A stretch of 64,000 bases of DNA from Flavobacteriales bacterium (GTDB lineage: Bacteria > Bacteroidota > Bacteroidia > M30B66): the NCBI GenBank assembly GCA_044369395.1, contig JBIPLZ010000421.1, positions 24,847-88,846 on the forward strand. The letters are read 5' to 3'. A model generated the notes under the pieces. It was not told the origin of the DNA. It ran no database searches and saw only the letters and a program-made list of their open reading frames with translations. Below, piece by piece: positions 5,278-47,237 of this stretch. A program made the position numbers and the translations under genes. Each line of letters begins with the position of its first letter. Position 1 is the first letter of the stretch.

Positions 5278-6534
5278 TTAGGTCATCCAAACGTTAGTTT
5301 TTCCGTCTCTTGACGCATATTCGTAATTTTTAAATAACAAAGAAAAATCTTTGTATTTGTAAACAGTATTTCCGGGTACAGCTCCTGGAGGTAAAATATT
5401 AGTTACGTTGTCGTAAGCTTCTATAGGTGGAAAACCGTTATGGGTTATAAGTTTATAACTTTGACTTCCTTGTAAAACTCTAGCAACAGCACCGGGAAGT
5501 TTTAAATTAGTATCTTTAGAAACTGGAAAATGTTGTAAAAACCAATTATGACCTCTAGGTTCTGTAGTAGGCTGACTTGTATTAACTGCCCCCGGCTCAG
5601 GATCAAAAAACTTCATTTTAAAAGTGATGTCATAAAGACGTTGATCTTCTAACCATCGATAAGGTTTTAACTCTACATTAGTAAGAAGTAATTGACCTTT
5701 TTTTGCACCAAGTGCATCCCAATCATATAAATTTACAGAGCCAATATGTGTTTTAATTGCTGCTGGAATACCGGGAACTTTGTGATGTATTACAACAATT
5801 TCAGAAGCACTTACTATTTTACCCTGAGCTCCTTGAACCATAATACCTACTGGCTCTTTTGTTTTAGCATCTAACAGCGGAAGTCCGTTTTTATCAAACT
5901 CTACCCACTTGTAAGCACCAAAAGGTAAGGATAAAAATTCTGCGGTTGGTTGTTTAAATACAGTAGTAAATTGAGATAATTGATACTCATCTGGTGATAC
6001 AGATTGTGATCCAATAAGTGGTTCTACTCGATAAGTAACTGATTCATAATTAATAGTTATTCTTGCTATGTCATAATAAGATGTTTGTAGTTTTGATCCA
6101 CTGCCTAAACTGTCATATAATATTTGTTGACCTAAACATTCAATGCTTTCTAGTCCAGTAGCAACCATAAAACTTTTTGCTGCTCCACCATTTGGACCAC
6201 CGTTTGATCCGTAGTATACATAATATTGATCGGGTTTTTCTCTTACTATTGTGTTGTCTGTAGGTGTTCCATCAATTGTTGCTGTTCCAAGCATGTATTT
6301 TATAAAAACCCATCTTTGTGGATAAGGAACATCAAAAGTTCTACGAGCACGAAACGTATCACCAGTGTATGACTCTTGTGGAGATCCTGGTCTTTCGTAA
6401 TAAGTTACAGCTTCTGTTCTTGGTTCTGCGGGTGTATTTGGAAAAGCAGAAGCCACTTTATAATTAATAATTGCAACTGACATTTTAAACTCCTTAAGAG
6501 GATGCGCCCATAGGTATTTTGTTTTCTCGAACAC
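5278..6534 (-). CDS. hypothetical distal tail/baseplate protein (probable true start at 6483)
   Basis: 418-aa ORF directly downstream of the tape-measure-like gene. An internal Met (MSVAIINYK) at 6483 is preceded by AAGGAG on the minus strand and removes the overlap with the giant gene. Confidence 0.4.
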   Translation of the reverse strand: MFEKTKYLWAHPLKEFKMSVAIINYKVASAFPNTPAEPRTEAVTYYERPGSPQESYTGDTFRARRTFDVPYPQRWVFIKYMLGTATIDGTPTDNTIVREKPDQYYVYYGSNGGPNGGAAKSFMVATGLESIECLGQQILYDSLGSGSKLQTSYYDIARITINYESVTYRVEPLIGSQSVSPDEYQLSQFTTVFKQPTAEFLSLPFGAYKWVEFDKNGLPLLDAKTKEPVGIMVQGAQGKIVSASEIVVIHHKVPGIPAAIKTHIGSVNLYDWDALGAKKGQLLLTNVELKPYRWLEDQRLYDITFKMKFFDPEPGAVNTSQPTTEPRGHNWFLQHFPVSKDTNLKLPGAVARVLQGSQSYKLITHNGFPPIEAYDNVTNILPPGAVPGNTVYKYKDFSLLFKNYEYASRDGKTNVWMT

Positions 6535-15500: not shown

Positions 15501-15898
15501 GGATCTTTTACGTTGTTTTTTGCAGCGAGTTGTTTACGAATAAGAATCTTTGCGTTTTCACGCATAGCAAAACTTGCAAGAATTTCAGCGTCAGATTTTT
15601 CACCACCACCACTACTACCACTTCTAGCAAAGTGACTAGCAAGACCGCCTCGTTGCCCACCGCCTTGATTGTCGTTACTAAACAGGGATCGAGATGCTCT
15701 CATTTGAAATGCAAGAGCGTGGAATTCTACTGCAATGTGCTTGGCAGAATCTTGAATAGATTCTAATTGAATACTAAAACGGTTTAAAGAAGCGGTCATT
15801 TGAGAGAACTGCTCAAATATTTTTTTGACCGCTTCTGCACCGGTGTAAGGTACTTGTGATAGTTTTGGACGACCGTGTTCTTGTCCTTGACCGATCAT
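6494..15898 (-). CDS. giant tape-measure-like virion protein (3134 aa) with an embedded staphylococcal-nuclease (SNase/thermonuclease) domain
   Basis: It sits after the tail-assembly-chaperone pair and before the distal tail genes. It is highly charged, K/E-rich and coiled-coil-like, with internal tandem repeats. The C-terminal ~500 aa have Gly/Ala-rich hydrophobic segments (GAAVLPAIAFFGALVSGVSLLINGFAFF...; AGAATAGAGAATAGAG). At roughly aa 1270-1400 (about nt 11410-11720) there is an SNase-like signature: DADTYDTGKGKLRLNKGDAPE...KIEAKVLVDSEGKPKLDKYQRLLGDILVDGESLTEKLAAEGHLHV. Confidence 0.6.
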   Translation of the reverse strand: MIGQGQEHGRPKLSQVPYTGAEAVKKIFEQFSQMTASLNRFSIQLESIQDSAKHIAVEFHALAFQMRASRSLFSNDNQGGGQRGGLASHFARSGSSGGGEKSDAEILASFAMRENAKILIRKQLAAKNNVKDPTLNDDEILADYVKMLKRKSEASTKFYEEEKAKREAVDSSGMTQDQRDHIEYLKKKAQWTKAFNEDPKVSSPKDAESEKKHLEYLKKKAQWTKSYNESKQVVAERNANEVKRNQENLAKYKAFLETKSELYEKFQDAKRIANEKKKEEKDVQRKQDFPMPGNVDAYKQANAVNTYKKEQTESAGALNNYVEYLVAKEIEYRAHQERLEAIRQTNKDNHKNDEKPLEPFNKRTYESFLDQPDSLAEDINKFGEHYQKPLRSYVNYLTEKENVTAAHKKAMAAIKNADLSPRQKRQKEKDDVAEKEYQEKIKGLSKEEIAKIEPPEENNWYLKKLEQLKNYYLERLGIEKWFKDAELALIAAGIDNKDNLFKTRRQKKQDARDSVYGVKDASATNTSAPVSTLTQSTQEALARGQKTLETENLVTKLIDANNDSDSNSDSNENLSSILLDLNNIGNLFKNKNVITIDAETVSPPTAPVNSENHAIEAQIVQLSMIMKDALGKNLVEPLNIFIKADETLDLNKDPKFKDFNETYLKEDDAGNTLTPENAAKRITDKIAEMLEKDPTATINRKGTYEDDLANANNDEIKNAMLKIVGNVDKRKNEIGSASYANVNTDYIIKQLIEIEKKHFKTSDLQTKLTKIALDQAKKREEKENRSGIVDSIKQQEASEDGKTIFTIEVQKEAFGIITEGTAHDASVDTEIQDQIFRALASQFQKLKSSITPPSENVSSIVKNLANDSGKTPDKNLISVVETVSSIIKKFYSGKDSSIQNINQKEGDAELRINKGNKVVTDASYVEGVKNLLKTISNEMGINIYKIFDKIKISRSESIKGKDGEYQGRVGTKGEGDNLKQSLTLAIPDAAILGNDAEARAKVIALIMEEAFIHGLSNKIPALFAEGADLAQARGELQGAYGAISNQKSGDLAGAFDSGKYLSSFEELLAAVLKGIAGHDVSGLKDQNLPAGDFKYSIVAAIKNSLSGPMLAAAIVPMLMASMAGAGTLEDERAAGFVNKNNGVEGSVIGDPRARENFFQKGIEDRRKDKSPNAAELSIYADRERKAEEAAKPSSAVEDIKQIRAEKEKEAARVAALKKQKEDAKAAQLAGPPPTAEETAALEEKNQKEKEEKDKKEQAWLAAGGLYSQGGILPLEPKPEDPQKNLDNIVKNVVDTIVAIPSAIEQSSKNNPPLLRSTNPNAPKVGIKGSTNVPPDSIISGSQAPFYSTAPTAKPTPALSLPTIPVNSKPTSTNKKPASIKEEKYVTFPMNVKNPLTSNLIKDADTYDTGKGKLRLNKGDAPEVAHGPGELDQPGGREAEDAARNILANAKKIEAKVLVDSEGKPKLDKYQRLLGDILVDGESLTEKLAAEGHLHVADIEGNEKPLSLMKGAARLKKGLFSKKSIDPSKWRKFSRAQKEAHIKDVEASGDIQTPNNTLNQPPSPAPTPSPMESEIATPEVSENPKEKPSSNFGRLIALALGTAGVAGATLFRVLNKKKKEKENNTPKDVAKSKPKVATAPPLSEDEIKEIDKAIAELEIELAPETTSSATAPKKNRFLDYRYSELKEQQEFREPRKGYNSDGSPNWQDFEIEDNANVDKEIERRDNFKPGIPGTLSKNKDNEEVYTGENGLQYLYQDGKIHTSFGVTGHADPTISITPKTPPIDLNPEPRPSIIKPVVPPEKPISLPTNEQSDEYSNFTEMIKHWGFQTLKDVLDEMKPSEEGYTLEEQEKRNTINSEIERRKNFKPGIPGTISKNINSDLVYIGENGSYYRYDENANEIDTRHAKSGDVDPDIAETPKIKPTDRNPLKPKNKNLKADLVNARIAFEKEKKLKDRAFLLRENQPPAEILAFENAEEELKNAQAAYDKSIENAAPVVEPEIVSEPTKEPARPSNKAAKFVPRKMGDGDLYGSAASQIQVPMELMQTPQVNAQLEKNHGAFNGMSAVDGLIGRSGGLNSHMILAALMGHSLSGDQAFKDKTSNFDPATVAYLLQKEVDNFTGADRGDLDKEVKPLNPTAVKRIDESGRGSLEQEQKKIEAYLKTMANPIFQKIARANLVIVQNQLNRLNDIKRSTAETTTEVKKDDDEPLIISEPSDATTEDAKDTKPEVTKNPDVTKEEKQEEKKEEATTKINAESKQAIPRFREEVPAGWAEVLAETLNRYSGNAYEDHDTIDVDSIVNAIPNTEETKEKKSKFRYDYEAMDSTGTEVKDSINASSEEEAQQKVKELGYALTKITKSNKPPVYEELENNKPEDDSKEKEFYYNIINPNKDVNDFTREKEGHEYASSEEEAFQQIQKKYPEYEIKYIENTADDKPSKVLPQAETSIGVMGAAFGAAVGVSFGTAAVGPIGGIIGSLIGGFLGKLGGGLLVNRFNTERAERFEEREEEKKHRQKERSKQKEDATDTPEIKEKRNEIEIKEAQKYDLENMKSPEDLEKELQAQKMSGAEISDADIDIAVEKQKKAIEASADAIEKLKQELQALTEILNDLIKNKPAVDPEAGSGRRPEHHFLGGFVGGKNSFPGKPKGLDQTPVWAQEGEYITAKKDVPYMMAALGAYKKRGVSHMARGGVVGGGSATITRPSGGSYSSGDIMGPFKDKLNDFVKNTRFGAFVSNLTEASAKIQSFSQSMSGMTANASPDTFATFTGSIKLLSGAVGMALIPVFLRASQIIQTWAREIMNGTGTAGRLFSMFSSLVNSVLDGKFLALGVGIALLGAAVLPAIAFFGALVSGVSLLINGFAFFRAALLASSLMLRRGAAVPPVSPVAAGAATATAGAGAATAGAGAATAGAAKAGASAATAGAASTTGAKTTGFLAKLLAGGGGAAMTGGILSGIVGGVSEGMENADIKSMSGGENVVRTGAQVAGAGGGALAGAMGGAWAGAALGSLVGPLGTAVGGAVGGLIGGALGSWGGSKIASGTSNLAFGDKRRNEKDANGKPLPANDSKQQLSMAYQSSKSQSSYSSVEEAYKKIQVSALGDDPMTAELKKMNEHGLINMLKELEKVNEGVRENKIPMGASS

Positions 15899-30554: not shown

Positions 30555-33404
30555 ATGTCATTATGGAATTACAGATTGCCAGCAATTGTTTGTTATAAAG
30601 ATAAGCAGCACATTGCTTACCGATTTACCAAGGGAGGAGTGAAAGTAAAGCTCCTTTCTTGGAAAGAAAAGTTTTCGGAGTCGTTCTTCAAAGCTGTTGG
30701 TACTCCTGATAAGAACAGTACCAATGTGATGAATGAACTTGAGGTTAAGACCTTCAACGGTCACGACTACTTCAAAGTAGAAGGCATTGTATTCTCCTGT
30801 TCGACAGGAGATGTAATGAAAGATAACAACATCATTAAGTTGTTTGATGGTGTTGAACTTACCGAAGGTACAGCTCTTAGAGAAGACCCTGAGAACGGGT
30901 TTTATAAGGGTATGTACAACGCTCATGCTCATAAGCGTCATTTAGAAGACAAACAAGCAGGTATTGTGCCTGCTGTTCCAACTACTACAGCACCAGCTTC
31001 GGTGTCTGTGGAGGTGTTTACTCAAGAACCTATAAAGGAGGTAGATAGAGTGAAGCAACATATTCAGCACTTGCTTGATACAGAACGGATCAAGGAGTTG
31101 AGCAGTAACACAAAGGTAAAGGGAGTCTACGGCAGGGATTATCATATGATCCGTGCTGTATCCAAAGGTAGGGCCTATAGGGTCTTCACAATGGACAAGG
31201 GCAAAGATTGCAAAGAAATCCTTCACGCTATGGAGGGCTTCTTAATAATTGCAGTCAACAAACCCGATACCGTATTATTTGCAGTGTCTGAAGAACCCAC
31301 TACGTTCTTAGCGTGGTTCAAGGATTTCGGCTTTGGGATCAAGAAAGGGCCAAAGCTTAGTAAACGGTTATCGCAATTCATTAGACCCTATCTAATGTTT
31401 GCAAGTTTTGGTCCAAAGATTTTTAACATTAAGATCTTAACCAAAGAAAATTGGTCGGGTGATTTCCGCACTGTTGACGGTGCAAATATCATAAGCACAA
31501 GAGCCTTTCGGTTTTTACTCGCAGTAACCGTAGGTAATCTTATAAAAGCCGGTGATCAAGAAGCTGCTGATCTCATTCAGCAGATGGGCGAAGAAAACGT
31601 TGTATTCAACGGCAGGCTTTGGTTGCCAGGATATGGATTCATCAAGGGTCAGTTCTTTGTCTCTCCTTTCATCAAGGAAGATTTTGTTATCCACGAGGGT
31701 AACATCAAGGATGAGATCCGAGTAAATTGTCCATACGCATACCTTGGTATGGACCCACAGCCCGGTAAACTTTCACTCGAGTCAAACGGTCAGGGGTGTA
31801 ACAACTTCCCACCACCGTTTGGGATTGGTCACGGTGTAAAAGTTGCTGATAGCTTGTTGTACAAGAATGTTGTCAAAGCTTGTGATAAAGCTTTAGAACG
31901 TCTTAAGACTGGCAAGCTTGAGACATCTCTCAAAGACCTCTTGATCTTGTTGCAAAACAACTTGATTGAGGAGAGTGAGACTACCAAGGGAAGACTTAAC
32001 CTTGCTCACTGGAGTGAGTTTGATTCTCCTAAATCTAACCCTGCATTGTTTGGCAGGGAAGCTAAAGATGGTCTACGTCGCATGGTTGACTTAGATGAGC
32101 TTAACATCAATGTCAAAGTTGATGGTGGCACATATTGCCAAACAGTTTCAGAGTCAGTAATGGCTTTGATTGGTGTGCCTACTATCATTGAGAAGGGTAC
32201 TGTCCAATACAATTCTCGGTGGATGGTTTACGTCATGAATGACGAGGACTACATTGCTAACCTCCCCAACCATGGTGGTCCTGACATGGACGATAAGTTC
32301 TGTCAGATACTAATGCGACAAGAAGGTTTTGATGGCATTCGATGCTTTATGTATCGGAATCCATCCGACAGGGGTGAGTACAATGTACTTACCTTCAAGG
32401 GTGAGCCACCTGTTAAAATCAGCGAAGTCATCTTACCAGCTAAGATGCCTCTTAAGCTAACCGAGCGGGATTGGAAGTTGCCAGAAGTTCCATCGGCTAC
32501 AAGGCCGAAAGTAGTTTACGTTGATGCAGATTATGCCATCGACGAGTTTTACAAAGAGCTCGATCTAGAGGGTGCAAACCCTGGATTGGGTATCAACGTA
32601 GGCAGCTTGTGGAACGCTTCTAACCCTGACGTGTCGCTTAGAAATAAGCACATGCCTAGCAATGAAGCTCAGGTTGACTCTACCGTTCAGCTTAAAGACG
32701 GTGTTGATATCGTCTTTATCAAAGGCTGCATGGTGAAAACTATGAAGGAGGTTCTTCAATCTACTTGGATGGTCGATCACCGCAGGTTGCGCAACGTCAA
32801 GAAGATGTTCAAGGATGACGCTCACTACAACTCTTGGGTTGCAAAACTCAAGAAGCAAGGCCGTCTTCCCGAAGCTGGCAACTGGTGGACTCGTCTAGTT
32901 ACTGAGTGTGACAAGGTGGTTAAAACCACTATTGAGAAGATTGACCAGACTATCGAGTCAGTCAGACTTCGTAACAATTACAACCTTATCAGCCCTACAC
33001 CTCTTAATGCTTCACAGCTTGAGATGGTTGCTAGGTATGTCTCCAAGATGATGCGTGTTCAAGGTGCGTGTGGTCGCACACCAGAGACTCGCAACACCGG
33101 ACTTAGAAATGCTAAGGACAGCATCACCCAGAAAGGCCACGAATGGATCGCCAAGGGTATGAAAGAACACTTCAACACCCTGTGTGATAAATTCGCAGCA
33201 TGGGGACTGGTTGAGCAAGACGGGGTCAAACTCAGCAGAACTCCTGTTCGTGTTGCTATTGCAATAGCGCACGTAGTTAACAACCACTCCTTCGTAGGTA
33301 GAGAAAACCCAATCGTCACGGATTGGCTAATGGATCGTAAGGAATACTTCAACACCTACTTGAGTATCCTTAAGACCTACAAGAAGGTTACTGCTACTAA
33401 GTAG
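30555..33404 (+). CDS. large hypothetical protein (949 aa)
   Basis: Long ORF with RBS AGGAG. It is preceded by tandem terminator-like hairpins. It contains a KVDGG motif but no convincing family assignment. Confidence 0.5.
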   Translation: MSLWNYRLPAIVCYKDKQHIAYRFTKGGVKVKLLSWKEKFSESFFKAVGTPDKNSTNVMNELEVKTFNGHDYFKVEGIVFSCSTGDVMKDNNIIKLFDGVELTEGTALREDPENGFYKGMYNAHAHKRHLEDKQAGIVPAVPTTTAPASVSVEVFTQEPIKEVDRVKQHIQHLLDTERIKELSSNTKVKGVYGRDYHMIRAVSKGRAYRVFTMDKGKDCKEILHAMEGFLIIAVNKPDTVLFAVSEEPTTFLAWFKDFGFGIKKGPKLSKRLSQFIRPYLMFASFGPKIFNIKILTKENWSGDFRTVDGANIISTRAFRFLLAVTVGNLIKAGDQEAADLIQQMGEENVVFNGRLWLPGYGFIKGQFFVSPFIKEDFVIHEGNIKDEIRVNCPYAYLGMDPQPGKLSLESNGQGCNNFPPPFGIGHGVKVADSLLYKNVVKACDKALERLKTGKLETSLKDLLILLQNNLIEESETTKGRLNLAHWSEFDSPKSNPALFGREAKDGLRRMVDLDELNINVKVDGGTYCQTVSESVMALIGVPTIIEKGTVQYNSRWMVYVMNDEDYIANLPNHGGPDMDDKFCQILMRQEGFDGIRCFMYRNPSDRGEYNVLTFKGEPPVKISEVILPAKMPLKLTERDWKLPEVPSATRPKVVYVDADYAIDEFYKELDLEGANPGLGINVGSLWNASNPDVSLRNKHMPSNEAQVDSTVQLKDGVDIVFIKGCMVKTMKEVLQSTWMVDHRRLRNVKKMFKDDAHYNSWVAKLKKQGRLPEAGNWWTRLVTECDKVVKTTIEKIDQTIESVRLRNNYNLISPTPLNASQLEMVARYVSKMMRVQGACGRTPETRNTGLRNAKDSITQKGHEWIAKGMKEHFNTLCDKFAAWGLVEQDGVKLSRTPVRVAIAIAHVVNNHSFVGRENPIVTDWLMDRKEYFNTYLSILKTYKKVTATK

Positions 33405-38802: not shown

Positions 38803-38853
38803 TAGCTCTCTAGTGATTCCTGCAAAGGATGAATTAGAGAGCTTCTTTTTTTC
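38803..38853 (+). terminator. rho-independent terminator
   Basis: AGCTCTCTA...TAGAGAGCT inverted repeat followed by TCTTTTTTT. Confidence 0.55.
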
Positions 38854-39003
38854 ATGTGGGCAAGTGAATATAGACAGCACCTTTCTAGTAGTAGTGAGCA
38901 ATCACACCCTACTAGATTGGTGCATTTTTTTGAAAGGTTTCTGTTTGGATTAGGGTTTCTCATATTAAAAACCGCTAAATACTTAACACAAAAGGAGCAT
39001 ACG

Positions 39004-40809
39004 ATGGCAACACTAGTTCATCCATCCGCAATTGAACAAGACGATAAGCTGCTGCATCGGCTAAAAAACTATAGGCTAGCTCCAATAGGAACACCTCTAA
39101 CAAAAGATGACACCTTAATCGTAAGCTGGGATTACAGACACAAGGCTGCAACACTTCTTCCTAGCCGTATGCTAACTGTCATTGTTCTTAATCCCACCAA
39201 CGAAAGCCCAATGATAACTGTCAAAGGTGTGCATGTAGAAAGAAGAAACGGATCTGTAATAATGCAGTCGTATGATAAAAGAGCACAGCAGAATATGTAC
39301 CGGCTCTTTAAAACCATGCCAAACACTTGGGGTGGTAAGACTTGGTTTAACATGGGCAAAGTTTATGACATCTCTAGAACACCATACGCATACCTTCTAG
39401 ATACCCGCCATGCAACTATCATAAACCCTTTCGGAGAAGAATACGAAAAAGATATCACAAGCTATTGTAGACCTATTGACTGCTTACCCTATGTCAGGGA
39501 AGGAAGAACCCCTCGTTACAAACTAACTGCTAACCAGACACCTCTCTTTAAAAGTCTTGCAGATGCTGTAGCAGGCAACGCTGTATCAACCGTAGAGTCT
39601 TTCTATACCACAGAGCTTGGAGAAGTTTCTTTCACTCTTAAGCAATGCTTAGATTACATGCCAAGAGATACAAGCGTAATGGCAGGGATTGCCAACTGGC
39701 CTTATGAGTTAGTACCACGAGCTTACTTAGAGTGGCTTGTAGCAGACGGAGATCTTGGCGACAGTGTAATGTCCACCGCACTACCTGGACCAAACGCTTT
39801 ACGAGATAGCATCTTATCCTTTCTTTCAGAGACTACTATCTTCAAGATGTACAACGGAACACTTGAAGAAGAAGGCAAACTAAAAGTAATCGGAAATACC
39901 AATGACAATCCCATGACTCGAAGCCTGCGTAAACAACACGTCAAGATGGATACAGAAGATAGAGATATGGTACACCGAGACTTCTGTACTTTCGGCTACT
40001 GGATCAAAGACACTTTCGTTCCAGCGGGAACTAGCAGCTACATACCTTTTGAAGCTCACGGGCCTGCAACTTGGCTTGAAGCTCATGATGGTAGAAGAGA
40101 TGCAGAGAGTCTTCCTAAACATCTTAAGACAGGACTTACTGAGTTTGAACGGCAAGAGAAATGGACTCCTACAGAAAAGGAAAACTACGATTGGAAGCCA
40201 GTACAAATAAGCACCAACGTAAACAAAGCATTAGAACATCTCTTTAACCTGCACCAAAGGCTAGATCTCTGGGAACAAAGACATGACTTTCTTCTTAGAA
40301 GAACCGAGCTTGAGATGAGTGAACGAGACAGGGAAGAAATGGACTGGGAGTTTAAAGAGCATGAGCTTGAAATGAAAAGAATCAAAAACGAGTATGTAGG
40401 TATCCTTAGCTTGCACAAAGATTCTATTCCCGCAGCTTGGGGAATCAAAGACCGGATTATTAAGCTTAGAACTGTAGCTAGTTATGATGCTAGGAAGATG
40501 GCAGATCTTATTGAAGACATGCTGGAATATGCAAGCTTAGAAGAAAAGCGTAGCGAAGAAGATCAAATGTACTGGATCTTAGTAACTCAAAAAGTGACAG
40601 AATGGAGAGAGTTTAAGCAAGAGCTAGATAAAGAAAAAGATAAACACTTAGAAGAAGCAAGGCTTATACGACCTGCTATACCTTGGAACATGATGAAAGA
40701 CTTAAACGTAAGCCAGACTGATGACGCTGCATCTTTAAGATGGGCAATTCGATTTGCCAAAACTCAAACCCCTAGCTTATCAAAAAGGAAATCCAAATGC
40801 TTCCAGTAA
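39004..40809 (+). CDS. large hypothetical protein (602 aa)
   Basis: Starts MATLVHPS after AAAAGGAGCATACG. The annotated upstream extension crosses a terminator and is unlikely to be translated. Confidence 0.45.
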   Translation: MATLVHPSAIEQDDKLLHRLKNYRLAPIGTPLTKDDTLIVSWDYRHKAATLLPSRMLTVIVLNPTNESPMITVKGVHVERRNGSVIMQSYDKRAQQNMYRLFKTMPNTWGGKTWFNMGKVYDISRTPYAYLLDTRHATIINPFGEEYEKDITSYCRPIDCLPYVREGRTPRYKLTANQTPLFKSLADAVAGNAVSTVESFYTTELGEVSFTLKQCLDYMPRDTSVMAGIANWPYELVPRAYLEWLVADGDLGDSVMSTALPGPNALRDSILSFLSETTIFKMYNGTLEEEGKLKVIGNTNDNPMTRSLRKQHVKMDTEDRDMVHRDFCTFGYWIKDTFVPAGTSSYIPFEAHGPATWLEAHDGRRDAESLPKHLKTGLTEFERQEKWTPTEKENYDWKPVQISTNVNKALEHLFNLHQRLDLWEQRHDFLLRRTELEMSERDREEMDWEFKEHELEMKRIKNEYVGILSLHKDSIPAAWGIKDRIIKLRTVASYDARKMADLIEDMLEYASLEEKRSEEDQMYWILVTQKVTEWREFKQELDKEKDKHLEEARLIRPAIPWNMMKDLNVSQTDDAASLRWAIRFAKTQTPSLSKRKSKCFQ

Positions 40810-41144
40810 ACCACGGCATCTTTCCACAAGATGAACTCGTTCCGGTAACAACCCTCTGGACATCTAAGAAAGGAACAGGAACTCTCTGGGGCAGACTCAC
40901 AGAAACGATGAGAGTCTTTCTGTTCCCAGGACAAGCTGGAATCAAGAAAGCTAGACTGGCAATCATGGAAAAGACAGACATAGCTTGGTACACGCTTTGC
41001 TCTTTAGAAGATCGTCCTTACGGTTGGTGCGGAGGGTTTGGACTTAGCTATGTAAAGATCAAGCTAAACAACAAAGAAAAACCAACAGACAGTGACAGTT
41101 ATGGCTTGTACTTTTCGCCATACTATAAGGAGAAAGTAGCATGA
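40797..41144 (+). CDS. hypothetical protein
   Basis: 115-aa ORF, translationally coupled. Confidence 0.4.
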   Translation: MLPVNHGIFPQDELVPVTTLWTSKKGTGTLWGRLTETMRVFLFPGQAGIKKARLAIMEKTDIAWYTLCSLEDRPYGWCGGFGLSYVKIKLNNKEKPTDSDSYGLYFSPYYKEKVA

Positions 41145-41410
41145 ACCGTTATAACTATTTCTGGAATGATAGCTACTGGGATATCTACGCAAAGGATATT
41201 GAAGAGGCACAGCAGTTAGTCTTTGACTTGGATAGGATACCTTATGATATAATACATATCCCCACCCTCAATATAAACATGGAGGTAGTTGATGAAGACA
41301 AAAAAGACACGGCAGCAAAAAGCCAAAAGGATATTAAATCTAACAGCAAGAAGAATGCTAGCAAAGCTACTGGCTATGAAACCTATCGACTTAAATCCGC
41401 GAGCATTTGA
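41141..41410 (+). CDS. hypothetical protein
   Basis: ATGA-coupled to the upstream gene. It overlaps the next ORF extensively in another frame. Confidence 0.3.
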   Translation: MNRYNYFWNDSYWDIYAKDIEEAQQLVFDLDRIPYDIIHIPTLNINMEVVDEDKKDTAAKSQKDIKSNSKKNASKATGYETYRLKSASI

Positions 41411-41513
41411 AAGCTATGAATTCTGCGAAGAAGTTAGAGACATGTATGAAAGAAACAGATTCAAAGCAGATAGACTATTAAAGAACTATGACCTAGCAAG
41501 TATCGTGGTGTAA
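41292..41513 (+). CDS. small basic hypothetical protein
   Basis: Strong RBS (GGAGGTAGTTG-ATG). Basic N-terminus. Confidence 0.4.
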   Translation: MKTKKTRQQKAKRILNLTARRMLAKLLAMKPIDLNPRAFESYEFCEEVRDMYERNRFKADRLLKNYDLASIVV

Positions 41514-41515
41514 CC

Positions 41516-41731
41516 ATGTCAAACATGAAATTGATACGAGAAGGACTGGAAGCTGCGGACGATCTATCAGTATTGTTCCGCAGCATATTAGGTGAAGTTA
41601 CTACAGCAAATGATAAGAGAATCAAGAAGCTAGAAAAAATCATCTCTGAAAAAAGAATACTTATTCACATAGCCCTAGCTGAAGCCGTAGCAGCAGAGAA
41701 ATTAACAACCAAGAACAGGACCTCTTTATGA
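41516..41731 (+). CDS. hypothetical protein
   Basis: 71-aa ORF adjacent to the previous gene. Confidence 0.35.
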   Translation: MSNMKLIREGLEAADDLSVLFRSILGEVTTANDKRIKKLEKIISEKRILIHIALAEAVAAEKLTTKNRTSL

Positions 41732-42129
41732 ACGCAATTCTCTCGCATCCATTATTTGCAAGCATGGTATGCGAACATGCAAGAAAAAGTTTAAACAAAC
41801 AAAAACACAAATGTGACTTCTGTTCTTTTACTGGAACAGATTTAGATAACTTTAACGAAGACCTTAGAACCTGTTCTCGCTGCCAAGAGTATATAGAATC
41901 TATGCGGATTTGTGGAATGGACGTAGATGATATAACAAAAAGGTTTGGCTTACTAGGAAGCATACGAGCTATGGAAAACTGCATTGGATCTTGTGCTCCC
42001 ACCAGTGCAATACTTAGTAGTTTTAAAACCTTCTTTAATAAAATGAAAACCATCCCTGAAATACGACAAGCCATTTCAGAAGGAATTGAAAACGAAAAAC
42101 GAAAAAGGGAAAACGGAGCTAGCGATTAA
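41728..42129 (+). CDS. zinc-ribbon hypothetical protein
   Basis: CDFCSF...CSRCQEY Cys pairs. Confidence 0.35.
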   Translation: MNAILSHPLFASMVCEHARKSLNKQKHKCDFCSFTGTDLDNFNEDLRTCSRCQEYIESMRICGMDVDDITKRFGLLGSIRAMENCIGSCAPTSAILSSFKTFFNKMKTIPEIRQAISEGIENEKRKRENGASD

Positions 42130-42481
42130 TTCGGTACTGCTTTATACGGGAAAGATAAAGAGCCGCGTCTTTAACTACGTGAGGGTTATACTGTTTCCAA
42201 TCACGAAGATGACCCCATGTCAAATGACAATTAGGACCGTCCTCGCAAAGAGACAAAAGATTAGAAGGGTCTAACTCTAAATCCGGTCTAAGATGAAACG
42301 GTTCGATATGGTGTACAGAAACGTTCTTACTTTTACCACAAGCCTGACAAGTTGGTTGAGTAAGTAAATGCTTTTTCCTAACACCATCCCACTTAGGTGA
42401 CCGCAAAGAATCCCTTGGAGGTGAGCTTTCAATTTTAGATTTCGCTGCACCAAAAATCATCTCTCTAATTGCTTGAATCAT
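42119..42481 (-). CDS. HNH endonuclease
   Basis: CQACGKSKNVSVHHIEPFH...NLLSLCEDGPNCHLTWGH is an HNH motif with a zinc-binding Cys/His pattern. It lies antisense within the plus-strand block. Confidence 0.7.
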   Translation of the reverse strand: MIQAIREMIFGAAKSKIESSPPRDSLRSPKWDGVRKKHLLTQPTCQACGKSKNVSVHHIEPFHLRPDLELDPSNLLSLCEDGPNCHLTWGHLRDWKQYNPHVVKDAALYLSRIKQYRINR

Positions 42482-42645
42482 AGCTTACTCCTTTAAGTAT
42501 AATTATATAATACTTTAACTATACCTAAAGTCGTTTATTAGTTCCATACTCCGTAAAGGTTTCCTGTTTAATTTTTGATTATTCGGGGATAAATACCTGT
42601 CCACTTCTGTACGCATTTGTATGATCCCAAAACAAAAGGAGCTGT

Positions 42646-43548
42646 ATGAAAGTAGTAGACTTATTTGCAGGAGCTGGAGGCTTTAGCACCGGAGCAGTAC
42701 AAGCTGGGTGTGAAGTTGTATGGGCTGCTAACCACTGGAAAGATGCGGTGCATGTACATGAGTGCAATCACCCCAAGACTTTCCACAGTTGTCAAGACTT
42801 ACAGCAAGCAGACTTTACTACCTTGCCACAGTACGATGTTCTGTTAGCCAGCCCCTCTTGCCAAGGGCATAGCAAAGCTCGGGGAGCGGATCAACCAAGA
42901 CATGATGCAGCAAGGAGTACAGCATGGGCTGTTGTTGCCTGCGTTGAAACCACCAGGCCCAAAGCTTTTGTAGTAGAGAATGTCACAGAGTTTTTAAGCT
43001 GGGAACTATTCCCACAATGGAAAGGCTGCATGGAAAAGCTTGGATATAACTTAGCTTCCAACATATTAAACGCTGCTGACTTTGGTGTGGCTCAATCTAG
43101 GATAAGAGTTTTTATTACCGGATCTAAAGCTCAACCTTTACAAGTTCAAACAAACCCATTTAAAAAACACATACCTTTTAAAGACTTAATTGAAGACGGG
43201 GATTATAAGTGGTCAACCGTTTCTGATAAAGCTGATAGCACTAAAAGAAAATGGGCTAACGGAATTAAAGACCACGGAGATAATTTCTTAATTGCCTACT
43301 ACGGATCTGAACGTGGGGGTAGAAGTATTAAGAAGCCCCTTGGAACAATAACCACGAAGGAAAAGTTTGCTCTTATCAATAGGGATAAGATGCGAATGCT
43401 TTCTTTGAGTGAATACAAAAACGCTATGGGATTCCCAGAAAAATACCTATTGCCTAAAAGCAAGAGCCTAGCACTTCACATGCTGGGCAATGCAGTCTGC
43501 CCTCCCGTTGCAAAAGAGATCCTAACCCAAATGAAAGAGTGTATTTAA
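42646..43548 (+). CDS. DNA (cytosine-5) methyltransferase
   Basis: Motif I DLFAGAGGFSTG, motif IV SPSCQGHS, motif VI ENV, motif VIII QSRIR. Confidence 0.8.
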   Translation: MKVVDLFAGAGGFSTGAVQAGCEVVWAANHWKDAVHVHECNHPKTFHSCQDLQQADFTTLPQYDVLLASPSCQGHSKARGADQPRHDAARSTAWAVVACVETTRPKAFVVENVTEFLSWELFPQWKGCMEKLGYNLASNILNAADFGVAQSRIRVFITGSKAQPLQVQTNPFKKHIPFKDLIEDGDYKWSTVSDKADSTKRKWANGIKDHGDNFLIAYYGSERGGRSIKKPLGTITTKEKFALINRDKMRMLSLSEYKNAMGFPEKYLLPKSKSLALHMLGNAVCPPVAKEILTQMKECI

Positions 43549-43805
43549 TGTCACGACACAACGTTACAGCACACGGTAAAACTTACACCTACGGATACGA
43601 CAATTGCGTTCCCGAATATTATTTGATGAGTATAGATGATAAAGGACAACGGGAGTTTTTAGTTGGAGGTATGGCAAGCTTTGCTGGAACAGCAGGCAAT
43701 CTTTTACAAGAGTTTAAAAGGCAAAAGCTTTTAGGAATCATTCATCCCGAACACATAACCCTTGCAGCACTGGATCTTCCTATTCCCCAAAAGGAGTTTG
43801 TATGA
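43539..43805 (+). CDS. hypothetical protein
   Basis: 88-aa ORF overlapping the MTase stop and the next start. Confidence 0.4.
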   Translation: MYLMSRHNVTAHGKTYTYGYDNCVPEYYLMSIDDKGQREFLVGGMASFAGTAGNLLQEFKRQKLLGIIHPEHITLAALDLPIPQKEFV

Positions 43806-44368
43806 AAATACTTACGCAGATATCACCAGCAAAAGTCCAAAACTTAGTAAGACTTCTATCCGAAAGACTCAAGCTAACCACAGATGTATCCAACTATGCG
43901 CCAGGTAGAAGAAGGTCTTGGCTACAATACGAAGCACCGCTGGGAGCAAGTATGCCTTGGAGAAAAGCTAACAACGACCAAGAGCTATGGGGCGAAATCC
44001 TAGAGATAGGAAAAGAGATAGGCTTCATTCCTGAGCTTGGACTAGCTTCTCTTGGAGGAACTATTAAGCCTCATCGAGATGCGTCTTACGCTGACTACAA
44101 AGCCGTAGGCATTAACTTAGGAGGTACGACTTTTGGATATGAAAAGTCTTATCCAGAATACAAATGGGCTCCTCAAGAACGATTAGTAACACCAGCAGAA
44201 GTAAGTGAGACAGATTTAATAGGCGGGGAAGTGTACGAGTTCAACTGCAAGAACCTACACTGGACAACCAACGTATCGCCCACCCGATGGGCAATTAATC
44301 TTTGGCAAGTATCAAACAAACAAAGAACCCAATACGAAACTTTTAAGGAGATTCACAATGGAAACTAG
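43802..44368 (+). CDS. AlkB-like 2OG-Fe(II) dioxygenase (candidate)
   Basis: GGTIKPHRDASYADY (HxD), then GGEVYEFNCKNLHWT (second His, 62 aa later), then SPTRWAINLWQV (R..N/L..RQ-like 2OG-binding strand). This parallels E. coli AlkB at LSLHQDKDE / GGESRLFYHGI / CRYNLTFRQ. Confidence 0.5.
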   Translation: MKILTQISPAKVQNLVRLLSERLKLTTDVSNYAPGRRRSWLQYEAPLGASMPWRKANNDQELWGEILEIGKEIGFIPELGLASLGGTIKPHRDASYADYKAVGINLGGTTFGYEKSYPEYKWAPQERLVTPAEVSETDLIGGEVYEFNCKNLHWTTNVSPTRWAINLWQVSNKQRTQYETFKEIHNGN

Positions 44369-44603
44369 CCGTCTTGAAAACCCATGGCCAAACGTACCGT
44401 TTTCTTCTAATGGAGCTGCACACTCTAAAGAAACAGTAAACAGTGTGAACGCAATCTTATTGAGGTTAGCGTTTCAAGCAGCAGAAGAACACATCAACCA
44501 AACAAGAATTGGAAATGGGTCAAAATCTTTTGAGAAGTTTAAATTGCAAGCAGAAGAACTAGAAAAAATTTTAGCGTTTTTTAACCCTTCTTGGAAAAAG
44601 TAA
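44358..44603 (+). CDS. hypothetical protein
   Basis: 81-aa ORF overlapping the upstream gene (same operon). Confidence 0.35.
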   Translation: METSRLENPWPNVPFSSNGAAHSKETVNSVNAILLRLAFQAAEEHINQTRIGNGSKSFEKFKLQAEELEKILAFFNPSWKK

Positions 44604-44625: not shown

Positions 44626-45180
44626 ATGCCCTACTGGTGTATCAATGCAGTAACACTAAAGCACAAAGACAAAGAGCACCTAGCATTTATTGCAAATGCT
44701 TATAACAACGGCAAGCTGCTTAGTTCTATTCTTAAAGATTCAACAGAAGCAGATCCTAAATTAATAACCGCGTGGCGGTTTGATAACTGGGGAACGTCAA
44801 AAGAAATTCAAAGACCTCACGAAGATGATGTAGAACCACACCAAGAAAAAGATGATGAAGAATGGTTCTTAGATCTAAACTTTGAAACCGCATGGACTCC
44901 ACCACTAAAGCTGTATTCACTGTTAAGTCTTGAAGGCTATAAAGTACAAGCTTATTTTTGGGAATCCGTCAAAGGCTATTGTGGAAGATTCTTAAATAAC
45001 AATGAAGCGTTCTATCCAATTGAGGTACTTGACTCTCAATGGACTTCAGCAAACCTCCCAGCAGATATCGACTTTGCATTAGGAATAACAGAAAGGTTAG
45101 TAGAGTGGGAAGATTATGAATATGAACTTGAACAACAAGATAAAGAAACCTCTGCCTTGTTTCAAGAGAGTTCAAAATGA
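44626..45180 (+). CDS. hypothetical protein, paralog of 46578..47237 (MPxxCxN / NWGT / TAWxPP family)
   Basis: MPYWCINAV..., FDNWGTSKE, FETAWTPPLKLYSL, AYFWESVKGYCGRF match the second copy. Confidence 0.45.
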   Translation: MPYWCINAVTLKHKDKEHLAFIANAYNNGKLLSSILKDSTEADPKLITAWRFDNWGTSKEIQRPHEDDVEPHQEKDDEEWFLDLNFETAWTPPLKLYSLLSLEGYKVQAYFWESVKGYCGRFLNNNEAFYPIEVLDSQWTSANLPADIDFALGITERLVEWEDYEYELEQQDKETSALFQESSK

Positions 45181-46304: not shown

Positions 46305-46560
46305 ACCTTTAACAAATCCAATAGATCTTGAACCTAATGTGCAAGACTTAATGAATAACTTTACAGCTGTAATTGAAAACGCTCGTATAGATGCTATGTG
46401 TTTATACCTTAGACTTAATAAAGAAACAGGGGATCAACAATGGGCTCTAAATGTATTAGATCCTTTAGACGAAATAGAAAACCTACTTAGACGTATTTAC
46501 AAAGCAAAAGCTTGTGCGTGGAAAAGAGGTTCAGATGGTGGAATTATTATATCAGATTAA
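46264..46560 (+). CDS. hypothetical protein
   Basis: 98-aa ORF overlapping the upstream gene. Confidence 0.3.
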   Translation: MLSTKQQEKKMPLEPLTNPIDLEPNVQDLMNNFTAVIENARIDAMCLYLRLNKETGDQQWALNVLDPLDEIENLLRRIYKAKACAWKRGSDGGIIISD

Positions 46561-46577
46561 CTAACAGGAGAATAATC

Positions 46578-47237
46578 ATGCCTAATTATTGCGAGAATGA
46601 ATTAAGAATACGTGGTAATAAAAAAGATGCTTTGGATTTTGTGGAAAAAATTAAACTAAAAGATAGACCTTTTTGTTACTCAGCGTTGTTTCCTATCCCA
46701 AAACCTTTGCAAGAAGTTACCTCAGGAAGCGAAGAAATTTATTATGAAGTCGTATATGGTAAACCACCAGACTGGGTTTTAACTCAAATGAAAGAAGCAG
46801 GGTTTGAAAATCCAGATAAAGAAACAATTATAACTTGGTATGCAAAAAGAAGCTTGTCAGCAAGCGATGCCGTAGAAAAAGTAAAAGCTATTGCAAATAA
46901 GTATAAACAAAACAAAGAAACCTACGGACATTTAAGTTGGTATGGTTGGTGCATATCTAACTGGGGAACTAAATGGGGTGCTTGTGATAGCGAACTGTTG
47001 TGCTCAGAAGAAATAAAACTTAAAGGTAAAGAATCTTGGGAAGTAGAATATAGATTTAATACTGCATGGAGTCCACCTAAAGAAGCTTTGTTGCATATCA
47101 GTGAGATGTTTCCAAACCTAAGTTTTGTTTTGAAATACTGGGAAGGTGGTTGCTGCTTTAAAGGAGTCTTCAAATTTGAGAACGGTGAAGTCTTTAAAGA
47201 TATAACTAAAGAATATACCGGCCACCGTGGTGGTTAA
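46578..47237 (+). CDS. hypothetical protein, paralog of 44626..45180
   Basis: MPNYCENELRIRG, SNWGTKWG, FNTAWSPPKEALLHIS, YWEGGCCFKGVF. RBS ACAGGAG. Confidence 0.45.
   Translation: MPNYCENELRIRGNKKDALDFVEKIKLKDRPFCYSALFPIPKPLQEVTSGSEEIYYEVVYGKPPDWVLTQMKEAGFENPDKETIITWYAKRSLSASDAVEKVKAIANKYKQNKETYGHLSWYGWCISNWGTKWGACDSELLCSEEIKLKGKESWEVEYRFNTAWSPPKEALLHISEMFPNLSFVLKYWEGGCCFKGVFKFENGEVFKDITKEYTGHRGG

What the first reader, a model, noticed from the sequence alone, without database searches (positions are those of the whole stretch)
42646..44603. C5-cytosine methyltransferase operonically coupled to an AlkB-like 2OG-Fe(II) dioxygenase
The ORF at 42646-43548 has the C5-MTase motifs FAGAGG, PSCQ, ENV and QSRIR. 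Two overlapping genes downstream, the 188-aa ORF at 43802-44368 carries an HxD...H...R arrangement with AlkB-like context. GGTIKPHRDASY parallels LSLHQDKDE, GGEVYEFNCKNLHW parallels GGESRLFYHGI, and RWAINLWQV parallels RYNLTFRQA. The four genes overlap start to stop, which indicates one transcript. C5-MTases are known to generate 3-methylcytosine as an off-target lesion, and AlkB-family enzymes repair it, so the phage may carry a self-contained methylate-and-repair module. Alternatively the dioxygenase may oxidise 5mC, as phage TET/JBP-like enzymes do, giving a hypermodification pathway. Either way this is an uncommon, coherent DNA-modification island that includes an antisense HNH endonuclease at 42119-42481.
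Basis: partly seen in the sequence, partly recalled or inferred. Interest (0 to 1): 0.7.

Follow-up and report, generated by a model that had tools for sequence, protein, structure and literature searches.

The report
Phage AlkB-like dioxygenase beside methyltransferase cassette
Both enzymes are real, but the methyltransferase is a swappable single-gene insert, and the small dioxygenase belongs to an unannotated phage family whose usual partner in other phages is the phage's own RNA polymerase, so this is probably not a dedicated "methylate-and-repair" pair.

Summary

A C5-MTase lies near the dioxygenase only in the closest clade (at least 81% identity; 5 of 37 loci). The most syntenic relative (L014) lacks it cleanly, so the MTase is an exact one-ORF insertion and the HNH a separate one. 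No MTase domain is fused to the dioxygenase in 21 large family members scanned.

The recurrent partners are different. The main one is an ~850-aa module that I identify by fold as a single-chain two-barrel RNA polymerase. It is fused in 11 of 27 multidomain representatives, lies within 6 kb in 17 loci, and is present in this window at 30555-33404. The others are PIF1 helicase, NADAR, DUF4326 and YpsA-type SLOG domains.

Most likely the protein is a nucleic-acid base de-adductase working with phage transcription or counter-defence. Repair of MTase-made 3mC is possible but incidental. A TET-like role is unlikely.

The parts
43802..44368 (+). 188-aa Fe(II)/2-oxoglutarate dioxygenase with an AlkB-like fold; member of an unannotated phage-restricted family
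44072..44080 (+). H91-R92-D93, the first two ligands of the predicted Fe(II) facial triad
   Evidence: H91 and D93 are invariant in 86 homologs and align to AlkB H131/D133. Coordinates.
44249..44305 (+). K150-N-L-H153 ... R162-W-A-I-N-L-W168: the distal His ligand and the predicted 2OG-binding Arg
   Evidence: K150, H153, R162 and W168 are invariant. The H-to-R spacing of +9 is the generic 2OG-oxygenase spacing. AlkB's second Arg (RxxxxxR, from my own knowledge of AlkB) is replaced by the invariant W168.
43883..43921 (+). Family-specific N-terminal motif DVSNYAPGRRRSW (Y32, A33, R36, W40); candidate substrate-binding lid
   Evidence: R36 and W40 are invariant, and Y32 and A33 are at least 90% conserved, across 86 homologs. 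The lid role is inference only.
42646..43548 (+). C5-cytosine DNA methyltransferase, carried as an exact one-ORF cassette
   Evidence: PF00145 2.6e-52. Motifs I, IV, VI and VIII. Absent from L014, with junctions at the shared RBS and at the next gene's ATG. 93% aa identity to L011/L015 while the flanks are 33-66%.
42636..42641 (+). Ribosome-binding site AAGGAG. In the relative L014 the same site drives the 85-aa gene directly
   Evidence: Sequence comparison of the junctions. Window 42551-42641 matches L014 3335-3424 at 84.6%.
42119..42481 (-). Free-standing HNH endonuclease, within a separate ~420-bp insertion (42130-42550) relative to L014
   Evidence: PF01844 8e-6 and phrog_144 4e-12. Absent from L011, L012, L014 and L015.
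43548..43805 (+). 85-aa protein of unknown function (start revised from GTG 43539). Conserved immediately upstream of the dioxygenase only in the close clade
   Evidence: TAATG and ATGA overlaps. 66-76% identity in L011, L012, L014 and L015, with an 85-aa ORF at the same position in L038. Absent from distant loci. No Pfam or PHROG hit.
44358..44603 (+). 81-aa protein of unknown function, overlapping the dioxygenase stop by 11 nt
   Evidence: Weakly conserved in L014 only (40%). No family hit.
30555..33404 (+). 949-aa single-chain two-barrel RNA-polymerase-like protein; the family-wide partner of the AlkB-like domain, here a separate gene 10 kb upstream in the same gene array

Best explanation
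The region holds two unrelated acquisitions placed next to an older gene.

(1) The C5-cytosine methyltransferase is a single-ORF cassette slotted behind a pre-existing ribosome-binding site. Most likely it methylates phage DNA to evade host restriction. The antisense HNH is a separate selfish insertion.

(2) The 188-aa protein is an active Fe(II)/2-oxoglutarate dioxygenase of a previously unannotated, phage-restricted family whose fold is closest to AlkB. Shown: the fold, the invariant HxD...H...R residues, and the family's distribution and partners. Inferred: it binds a nucleic-acid base, or a nucleotide-linked adduct, under an N-terminal lid (invariant Y32/R36/W40). It hydroxylates the carbon attached to a ring or exocyclic nitrogen, so that the adduct leaves and the base is restored, which is AlkB chemistry.

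The domain is repeatedly fused to, or encoded beside, the phage's own single-chain RNA polymerase. It also occurs with a PIF1 helicase and with NADAR, DUF4326 and SLOG domains that process ADP-ribose adducts or signals. Its most likely job is therefore to keep single-stranded template DNA (or transcripts) free of blocking base adducts, whether spontaneous or inflicted by the host, during early phage gene expression.

In this phage, 3-methylcytosine made by the neighbouring methyltransferase may be one of its substrates. That pairing is not what the family exists for.
For: Dioxygenase identity.

Phage restriction: all 20 close homologs are metagenomic, there are 18 IMG/VR loci and 9 Nodularia cyanophage genomes, and a pattern-based scan of the reference bacterial genome collection returned no relative.

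Partner evidence:
- Giant proteins: L028 is DUF4326-YpsA-AlkBlike-RNAPlike. L031 is SLOG-AlkBlike-NADAR-PIF1-RNAPlike. L023 is AlkBlike-SLOG-Zn ribbon-RNAPlike.
- 11 of 27 multidomain representatives carry the RNAP-like module C-terminal to the AlkB-like domain.
- PIF1, NADAR, DUF4326, cpYpsA or RNase H occur in others.
- As separate genes: YpsA two genes upstream in L007-L010; DUF4326 two genes upstream in L040; the ~846-aa gene within 6 kb in 17 loci.
- The RNAP identification is by fold.
- The window holds both genes in one co-directional array.

MTase is an independent cassette.

Precedents: phage NADAR (T4 gp30.3/AdfN) removes ADP-ribose from phage DNA to defeat DarT1 (PMC11257639). AlkB domains sit inside plant-virus genomes, mainly Flexiviridae (PMC544882). 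ALKBH3 partners with the ASCC3 helicase (PMC8254245). E. coli AlkB dealkylates N2-alkylguanines in vitro (PMC3986394 abstract).
Against: - AlkB's second 2OG-contacting Arg is not conserved (W168).
- Sequence-profile support is modest (hhalign 67%), and the Pfam AlkB model does not match.
- In this window the dioxygenase is 10 kb from the RNAP-like gene, and no SLOG, NADAR or PIF1 relative of the fusion proteins was detected in the 64 kb by tblastn. So the partner argument is by family, not by local context.
- The RNAP-like module has an invariant DxDD instead of the canonical DxDxD, and its activity is untested.
- Within the close clade the MTase pairing is conserved in 4 of 5 lineages, with equal dS against L015. 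That is what a real functional link would also produce.
Confidence: 0.5

Rival explanations
1. One reading: a dedicated methylate-and-repair module. The C5-MTase makes 5mC plus occasional 3mC, and the co-transcribed AlkB-like enzyme removes the 3mC from phage DNA.
For: - The two genes are one gene apart and translationally chained.
- The pairing is kept in 4 of 5 lineages of the close clade, with equal synonymous divergence of the two genes against L015 (dS 0.70 vs 0.72).
- The fold is closest to AlkB-family enzymes, including ALKBH2/3 and AlkB, which repair 3mC.
- M.SssI raises the mutation rate more in E. coli lacking alkB (bioRxiv 10.64898/2026.01.24.701492).
- Nodularia phage 2AV2 carries both a family member and a C5-MTase.
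Against: - The MTase is cleanly absent in the most syntenic relative, L014, which keeps the 85-aa gene and the dioxygenase.
- 32 of 37 loci have no C5-MTase within 6 kb, using a screen validated on two positive controls plus Pfam annotation of the neighbours.
- There are no MTase fusions in 21 large family members.
- The next-closest clade (64% identity) pairs with YpsA instead.
- In the Nodularia phage the C5-MTase is 55 kb away.
Confidence: 0.15
2. TET/JBP-like 5-methylpyrimidine dioxygenase: it oxidises the 5mC laid down by the neighbouring MTase (or thymine) as the first step of DNA hypermodification.
For: - The protein is a 2OG dioxygenase next to a C5-MTase.
- Phage 5mC- and T-dioxygenases exist (PMC8256090; PMC13229309).
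Against: - No Tet_JBP Pfam match for any of 21 members at E<=10.
- TET ranks below the AlkB family and prolyl hydroxylases.
- In genuine phage TET systems the MTase and TET trees co-segregate and a glycosyltransferase or kinase follows. Here the MTase link is confined to one small clade and no such downstream gene exists.
- Most family members have no MTase nearby.
Confidence: 0.07
3. Not a nucleic-acid enzyme. It hydroxylates a protein (for example the phage RNA polymerase or a host factor), or it destroys a small nucleotide-derived immune signal alongside the SLOG, NADAR and DUF4326 domains.
For: - The H-to-R spacing (+9) and the weak profile hits are PHD2-like.
- The AlkB-specific second Arg is missing.
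- SLOG, NADAR and DUF4326 fusions in phages have been interpreted as processors of soluble ADP-ribose derivatives (PMC9503650).
- ALKBH4/NMAD-1 and ALKBH7, which are among the top hits, include members reported to act on proteins (my own knowledge).
Against: - The fusions to PIF1 helicase, RNase H and an RNA polymerase point to nucleic acid.
- The family is mildly basic (median pI 8.7).
Confidence: 0.2

Closest known systems
AlkB / ALKBH family of Fe(II)/2OG nucleic-acid dioxygenases (E. coli AlkB, ALKBH1-8, NMAD-1)
   Different: 10-18% identity. It is invisible to Pfam 2OG-FeII_Oxy_2 and to PHROGs. AlkB's RxxxxxR second Arg is replaced by an invariant Trp, and the H-to-R spacing is +9 rather than +17. 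It has its own invariant N-terminal motif (R36, W40) and K150. It is restricted to phages. The substrate is unknown.
AlkB domains in plant RNA viruses, mainly Flexiviridae (PMC544882)
   Same: A viral AlkB-type domain. From my own knowledge, these sit in one replicase polypeptide with an SF1 helicase and the virus's own RNA polymerase, which would be the same architectural logic as the phage giants (AlkB-like + PIF1 + RNAP-like). The paper interprets the domain as protecting the viral genome from methylation damage.
   Different: Those are bona fide Pfam-detectable AlkB domains in RNA viruses with RdRp of the palm type. Here the viruses are DNA phages, the polymerase is of the two-barrel type, and there are extra ADP-ribose-processing domains. 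In this window the domain is a stand-alone gene.
Phage NAD+/ADP-ribose counter-defence fusions (SLOG-NADAR-DUF4326-Macro; PMC9503650) and anti-DarT NADAR AdfN (PMC11257639)
   Same: The same partner domains (YpsA/YAcAr/cpYpsA SLOG, NADAR including a Phage_30_3 match, DUF4326) occur in the same polypeptides or as neighbouring genes.
   Different: The terms 'dioxygenase' and '2OGFeDO' do not occur in that survey (0 hits), and 'dioxygenase', 'AlkB' and 'SLOG' do not occur in the polyvalent-protein paper. The window itself has no detected relative of those partner domains.
Phage C5-MT + TET/5mYOX hypermodification cassettes (PMC8256090)
   Same: A C5-cytosine MTase near a 2OG dioxygenase in a phage early region.
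   Different: The dioxygenase is not a Tet_JBP member. The MTase and dioxygenase do not co-segregate across the family. There is no glycosyltransferase or kinase.
Single-chain two-barrel RNA polymerases (QDE-1/RDR2, P23-45 gp64/P74-26 gp62, crAss-like phi14:2 gp66); this row concerns the 949-aa partner
   Different: The invariant motif is DxDD, not DxDxD. There is no sequence-level match to any PDB chain, Pfam, PHROG or deposited phage genome.

Membership tests
C5-cytosine DNA methyltransferase (PF00145) | Full-length match to the family profile above the curated cut-off | tested here: met
   178.7 bits against a cut-off of 22; residues 1-297 on profile positions 1-323 of 324.
C5-cytosine DNA methyltransferase (PF00145) | Motif I FxGxG (AdoMet), motif IV P-C-Q with the catalytic Cys, motif VI ENV, motif VIII QxRxR | tested here: met
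   FAGAGG at aa 7-12, PSCQ at 70-73, ENV at 111-113, QSRIR at 150-154.
C5-cytosine DNA methyltransferase (PF00145) | Methylates C5 of cytosine in a defined DNA sequence | not testable with these tools
   Needs bisulfite, EM-seq or nanopore sequencing of DNA from cells expressing the gene.
2OG/Fe(II) dioxygenase superfamily (double-stranded beta-helix) | DSBH fold with an HxD/E...H facial triad and a basic residue binding the 2OG C5 carboxylate | tested here: met
AlkB family (Pfam 2OG-FeII_Oxy_2, PF13532) | Match to the family's sequence profile | tested here: not met
   No hit for the window protein at E<=1, nor for any of 21 members at E<=10. A profile of 86 members finds no AlkB chain in the PDB.
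AlkB family (Pfam 2OG-FeII_Oxy_2, PF13532) | Closer in structure to AlkB-family enzymes than to other 2OG oxygenases | tested here: met
AlkB family (Pfam 2OG-FeII_Oxy_2, PF13532) | Profile-profile homology to E. coli AlkB in the catalytic register | tested here: inconclusive
   hhalign gives 67% probability, E 5e-5, over 78 columns, with H91/D93 on H131/D133. With the shallow alignment it gives only 1%.
AlkB family (Pfam 2OG-FeII_Oxy_2, PF13532) | RxxxxxR pair after the distal His (R204/R210 in E. coli AlkB; from my own knowledge) | tested here: not met
   R162 is invariant, but position +6 is the invariant W168. Position +7 is Q in the window protein.
AlkB family (Pfam 2OG-FeII_Oxy_2, PF13532) | Oxidative dealkylation of N-alkylated bases in DNA or RNA; nucleotide-recognition lid | not testable with these tools
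   Needs enzymology. The conserved N-terminal motif (R36, W40, Y32) is only a candidate lid.
TET/JBP 5-methylpyrimidine dioxygenases (PF12851) and phage C5-MT/TET cassettes | Match to the Tet_JBP profile | tested here: not met
   No hit at E<=10 in 21 members.
TET/JBP 5-methylpyrimidine dioxygenases (PF12851) and phage C5-MT/TET cassettes | The dioxygenase and the C5-MTase co-segregate across the family, and a glycosyltransferase or kinase lies downstream (PMC8256090) | tested here: not met
   A C5-MTase lies within 6 kb in only 5 of 37 loci, all in one clade. No GT or kinase family appears among the neighbours.
Single-chain two-barrel RNA polymerase (for the partner gene 30555-33404) | Two double-psi beta-barrel fold resembling QDE-1, gp64 or gp66 | tested here: met
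Single-chain two-barrel RNA polymerase (for the partner gene 30555-33404) | Metal-binding DxDxD motif | tested here: not met
   The invariant motif is GG-x-D-x-D-D (D577, D579, D580): HGGPDMDDK in the window and GGHDADDF in L003. That this loop corresponds to the catalytic loop is inferred, not shown.
Polyvalent proteins (PMC5512222) | One polypeptide combining several disparate enzymatic domains, delivered early in infection | tested here: inconclusive
   Relatives meet the architectural criterion. The window's protein is a single-domain stand-alone gene. Virion packaging is not testable here.

The most novel reading that the evidence does not exclude
The AlkB-like family is a phage counter-defence enzyme that works on the template of the phage's own RNA polymerase. 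It would oxidatively strip host-inflicted N-linked base adducts from single-stranded phage DNA: alkyl groups or ADP-ribose placed by DarT-type toxins. That would complement the hydrolytic NADAR, SLOG and DUF4326 domains it is fused to, giving a 'self-cleaning' transcription machine. Oxidative de-ADP-ribosylation of DNA would be a new reaction for a 2OG oxygenase.
Probability: 0.15. Interest if true: 0.85.

Novelty: new variant of a known kind. Interest (0 to 1): 0.55.

Why it matters
If the best reading holds, several things follow.
- A widespread phage protein family currently labelled 'hypothetical' (215 clusters at 50% identity, including cultured Nodularia cyanophages) becomes a recognisable Fe/2OG enzyme.
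- It would be a second, independent case of viruses wiring an AlkB-type domain to their own polymerase and helicase.
- It links oxidative base repair to the ADP-ribose counter-defence toolkit, which gives a concrete and cheap biochemical test.
- It also uncovers, in this window and its relatives, a sequence-orphan single-chain two-barrel RNA-polymerase family.

The comparative evidence makes it at best a local, opportunistic arrangement.

Tried and rejected
- **Library scans of the 188-aa protein and its small neighbours:** Pfam and PHROG found nothing.
- **Sequence searches of the PDB** with the single protein and with two profiles: no oxygenase found. The only 'significant' hit was ribosomal protein eL39 over one short strand, which I judge spurious.
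- **blastn of the region against deposited phages:** no match. The terminase has only 23-33% matches, so there is no cultured relative of the phage itself.
- **Reference bacterial genomes:** no family member found with the two peptide patterns used.
- **My first two motif screens for C5-MTases were faulty.** The first missed the window's own PSCQ. The second missed an SPCQ-type enzyme, Nodularia gp160, which tblastn also missed. The final screen passes both controls.
- **Block-transfer idea:** I considered that the 1.7-kb block shared with L015 means MTase, the 85-aa gene and the dioxygenase move as one unit. Per-gene dS shows the middle gene has a different history, so the block is mosaic.
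- **Nodularia gp073 (1,526 aa)** beside the homolog was tested for the RNAP-like module and has none.
- **The RNAP-like module** has no Pfam, PHROG, PDB-sequence or deposited-phage match. Only the fold search identified it.
- **One call failed on coordinates and one on frame.**
- **Not done:** the last protein-homology search was not used, and I did not analyse the 85-aa and 81-aa proteins further.
Full report
**1. What is in the sequence**

The window is a tailed phage with no close cultured relative. It has a major head protein, portal, large terminase, tail fibre and ribonucleotide reductase, and its terminase is only 23-33% identical to anything deposited.

The ORFs named in the finding exist as stated.
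- 42646-43548 is a full-length C5-cytosine DNA methyltransferase. It matches PF00145 at 2.6e-52 and has motifs I (FAGAGG), IV (PSCQ), VI (ENV) and VIII (QSRIR).
- 42119-42481 on the minus strand is an HNH endonuclease.
- The genes are chained. The MTase stop overlaps the next start as TAATG. Comparison with relatives shows that the 'GTG 43539' start is almost certainly the ATG at 43548, giving an 85-aa protein. That gene overlaps the 188-aa ORF by ATGA, and the 188-aa ORF overlaps the 81-aa ORF by 11 nt.
- This chaining is not special to the four genes. They sit in a ~26-kb co-directional array of about 40 ORFs. The promoter/terminator scan found nothing beyond chance.

**2. The 188-aa protein is a 2OG/Fe(II) dioxygenase with an AlkB-like fold**

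No Pfam or PHROG model recognises it or any of 21 relatives, even at E<=10. Sequence searches of the PDB are also empty.

It has 20 close metagenomic homologs. A profile search over 1.84 billion representatives finds 215 clusters.

An AlphaFold model built on the homolog alignment is confident (pLDDT 93, pTM 0.89).
- Foldseek against the PDB returns only AlkB-family enzymes in its top 50: ABH2, ALKBH3, AlkB, ALKBH1/5/6/7 and NMAD-1, with TM about 0.6 and 10-18% identity.

In an alignment of 86 members reaching down to 26% identity, H91, D93, H153 and R162 are strictly invariant, as are R36, W40, K150 and W168.

A profile-profile comparison with E. coli AlkB gives 67% probability (E 5e-5), with H91/D93 on AlkB H131/D133.

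The protein is not a conventional AlkB, however.
- The Pfam AlkB model fails to match.
- AlkB's second arginine is an invariant tryptophan here.
- The family has its own invariant N-terminal motif (DVSxYAxGRxRxW).

**3. Is it coupled to the methyltransferase?**

I collected 37 loci that carry a family member: the window, L001-L032, the Nodularia phage locus and L038-L040.

A C5-MTase lies within 6 kb in five of them: the window, L011, L012, L015 and L038. All belong to the clade whose dioxygenase is at least 81% identical. The screen behind this count combines three parts:
- precomputed Pfam annotation of the neighbours;
- extra Pfam scans of unannotated neighbours;
- a motif and HMM screen that passes two positive controls, after two faulty earlier versions.

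The most telling locus is L014, whose flanking genes are the best conserved with the window (55-92% aa).
- At DNA level, window 38824-42129 aligns to L014 1-3303.
- Window 42551-42641 aligns to L014 3335-3424.
- Window 43527-44351 aligns to L014 3410-4234.
- The window therefore has two separate insertions: the HNH cassette (42130-42550) and exactly the MTase ORF (42642-43526).
- In L014 the same AAAGGAG site leads straight into ATG TCA CGA CAC, the start of the 85-aa gene.

So the dioxygenase and its small upstream partner exist without the MTase.

The other direction deserves a fair hearing.
- Within the close clade the pairing holds in four of five lineages.
- Against L015 the MTase and the dioxygenase have the same synonymous divergence (dS 0.70 and 0.72), while the gene between them is saturated.
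- The cultured carrier Nodularia phage 2AV2 does have a divergent C5-MTase (gp160), although it is 55 kb from the family member gp072.

The methylate-and-repair idea is therefore not excluded as a local benefit. Experimental work shows that M.SssI is more mutagenic in E. coli lacking alkB. It does not, however, explain the family.

**4. What the family is associated with**

Clustering the neighbours and comparing proteins revealed a gene-fusion pattern.
- In L028 a 1,468-aa protein reads DUF4326, YpsA-type SLOG, AlkB-like, then a ~700-aa C-terminal module.
- In L031 a 2,122-aa protein reads SLOG, AlkB-like, NADAR, PIF1 helicase, then the same module.
- In L023 a 1,472-aa protein reads AlkB-like, SLOG, Zn ribbon, then the module.
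- Among 27 multidomain representatives, 11 have that module C-terminal to the AlkB-like domain.
- Others carry PIF1, NADAR, DUF4326, cpYpsA or RNase H.
- None of the 21 scanned has a methyltransferase domain.

The same parts also occur as separate neighbouring genes.
- YpsA lies two genes upstream in L007-L010.
- DUF4326 lies two genes upstream in L040.
- An ~846-aa version of the module lies within 6 kb in 17 loci.

The window has its own copy of the module, the 949-aa ORF at 30555-33404 (tblastn 1e-20 to 1e-24). It lies 10 kb upstream in the same gene array.

**5. Identity of the partner module**

It has no Pfam, PHROG, PDB-sequence or deposited-phage match.

Everything else scores <=5.2.

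The family has an invariant GG-x-D-x-D-D loop (HGGPDMDDK, 32271-32297) rather than the canonical DxDxD. That this loop is the metal site is my inference.

**6. Mechanism proposed**

Shown: an intact 2OG/Fe(II) active site in an AlkB-like fold; restriction to phages; recurrent physical fusion or adjacency to a phage RNA-polymerase-like protein, an SF1 helicase, and domains known or predicted to process ADP-ribose on DNA or as signals.

Inferred: the enzyme removes N-linked adducts from bases in single-stranded nucleic acid exposed by the helicase or polymerase, early in infection.

Precedents:
- AlkB domains in plant RNA viruses, mainly Flexiviridae (PMC544882).
- The ALKBH3-ASCC3 helicase partnership (PMC8254245).
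- Phage NADAR AdfN stripping ADP-ribose from DNA to defeat DarT1 (PMC11257639).

Surveys from the group that described SLOG-NADAR-DUF4326 fusions do not contain the term dioxygenase. They note only sporadic conventional AlkB-like genes in a few jumbo phages (PMC7824862). So this association appears undescribed in the literature I could search.

The MTase is best read as an anti-restriction cassette, and the HNH as a selfish endonuclease.

**7. Weak points**

- No substrate is known, and the fold margin over prolyl hydroxylases is moderate.
- The partner argument is family-wide rather than local. The window lacks detectable relatives of the SLOG, NADAR and PIF1 parts of the fusion proteins, and the RNAP-like gene is 10 kb away.
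- I could inspect only +/-6 kb around most homologs, so genome-level co-occurrence with MTases is untested.
- The RNAP-like assignment rests on one moderate-confidence model.

**8. Verdict**

What is new is a Pfam-invisible AlkB-like family in phages and its link to a sequence-orphan two-barrel RNA-polymerase family and to ADP-ribose-processing domains. That makes it a new variant of a known kind.

Interest is 0.55. It would be higher if the enzyme proves to reverse host-inflicted DNA adducts.

Noticed in passing
window 30555-33404 (+): A 949-aa ORF with no Pfam, PHROG, PDB-sequence or deposited-phage match. Its model's only strong fold matches are single-chain two-barrel RNA polymerases (RDR2, QDE-1, P74-26 gp62, P23-45 gp96, crAss-like gp66). 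It has an invariant DxDD loop instead of DxDxD.
   Followed up: yes
window 42130-42550 and 42642-43526: Two clean, independent insertions relative to the syntenic relative L014: an HNH cassette and an exact one-ORF MTase cassette that re-uses the downstream gene's ribosome-binding site. The MTase is 93% identical to those in L011 and L015, while the flanking genes are 33-66% identical.
   Followed up: yes
window 43539-43805: The mechanical ORF start (GTG 43539) is probably wrong. Relatives start at the ATG at 43548, which overlaps the MTase stop (TAATG), giving 85 aa. This gene has a saturated synonymous distance to L015, although both of its neighbours are at dS 0.7.
   Followed up: partly
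window 44626-45180 and 46512-47237 (+): Two paralogous proteins with a DUF1281_C / Api92-like ferredoxin-like domain (phrog_20518, phrog_12644), just downstream of the cluster. Their function is unknown.
   Followed up: no
window 6494-15898 (-): A 3,134-aa ORF in a low-GC (0.34) stretch with strongly negative AT skew (about -0.25) between 8 and 16 kb. It is presumably a giant structural or tail protein.
   Followed up: no
L011 7126-7635, L012 3795-4304, L038 1506-2054: A DUF7831 gene changes position around the AlkB-like gene in close relatives. It lies between the 85-aa gene and the dioxygenase in L011 and L012, and downstream of the dioxygenase in L038. It was not called next to the gene in L014, and nothing in the window or L015 clustered with it.
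   Followed up: no
profile of alignment A4, positions 113-155 (window 188-aa protein, about residues 126-155): The family profile matches eukaryotic ribosomal protein eL39 (E 0.0025 for a single chain, 1.9e-7 for a tandem chain) over the strand 'GGEV.FNCKN.HW'. This is most likely a chance or compositional resemblance.
   Followed up: partly
L002-L010, L039 (distant family loci); NC_048637.1 55085-55675: Distant family members sit next to WhiB genes, which suggests phages of actinobacteria. The only cultured carriers found are nine Nodularia cyanophage genome records, where the gene (gp072) is annotated as hypothetical.
   Followed up: partly
L003 4700-5557 and equivalents (cluster c2, about 285 aa): A protein that matches phrog_4285 'transposase' is conserved just upstream of the AlkB-like gene in the RNAP/helicase module of many distant loci. 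The transposase label looks doubtful in that context.
   Followed up: no
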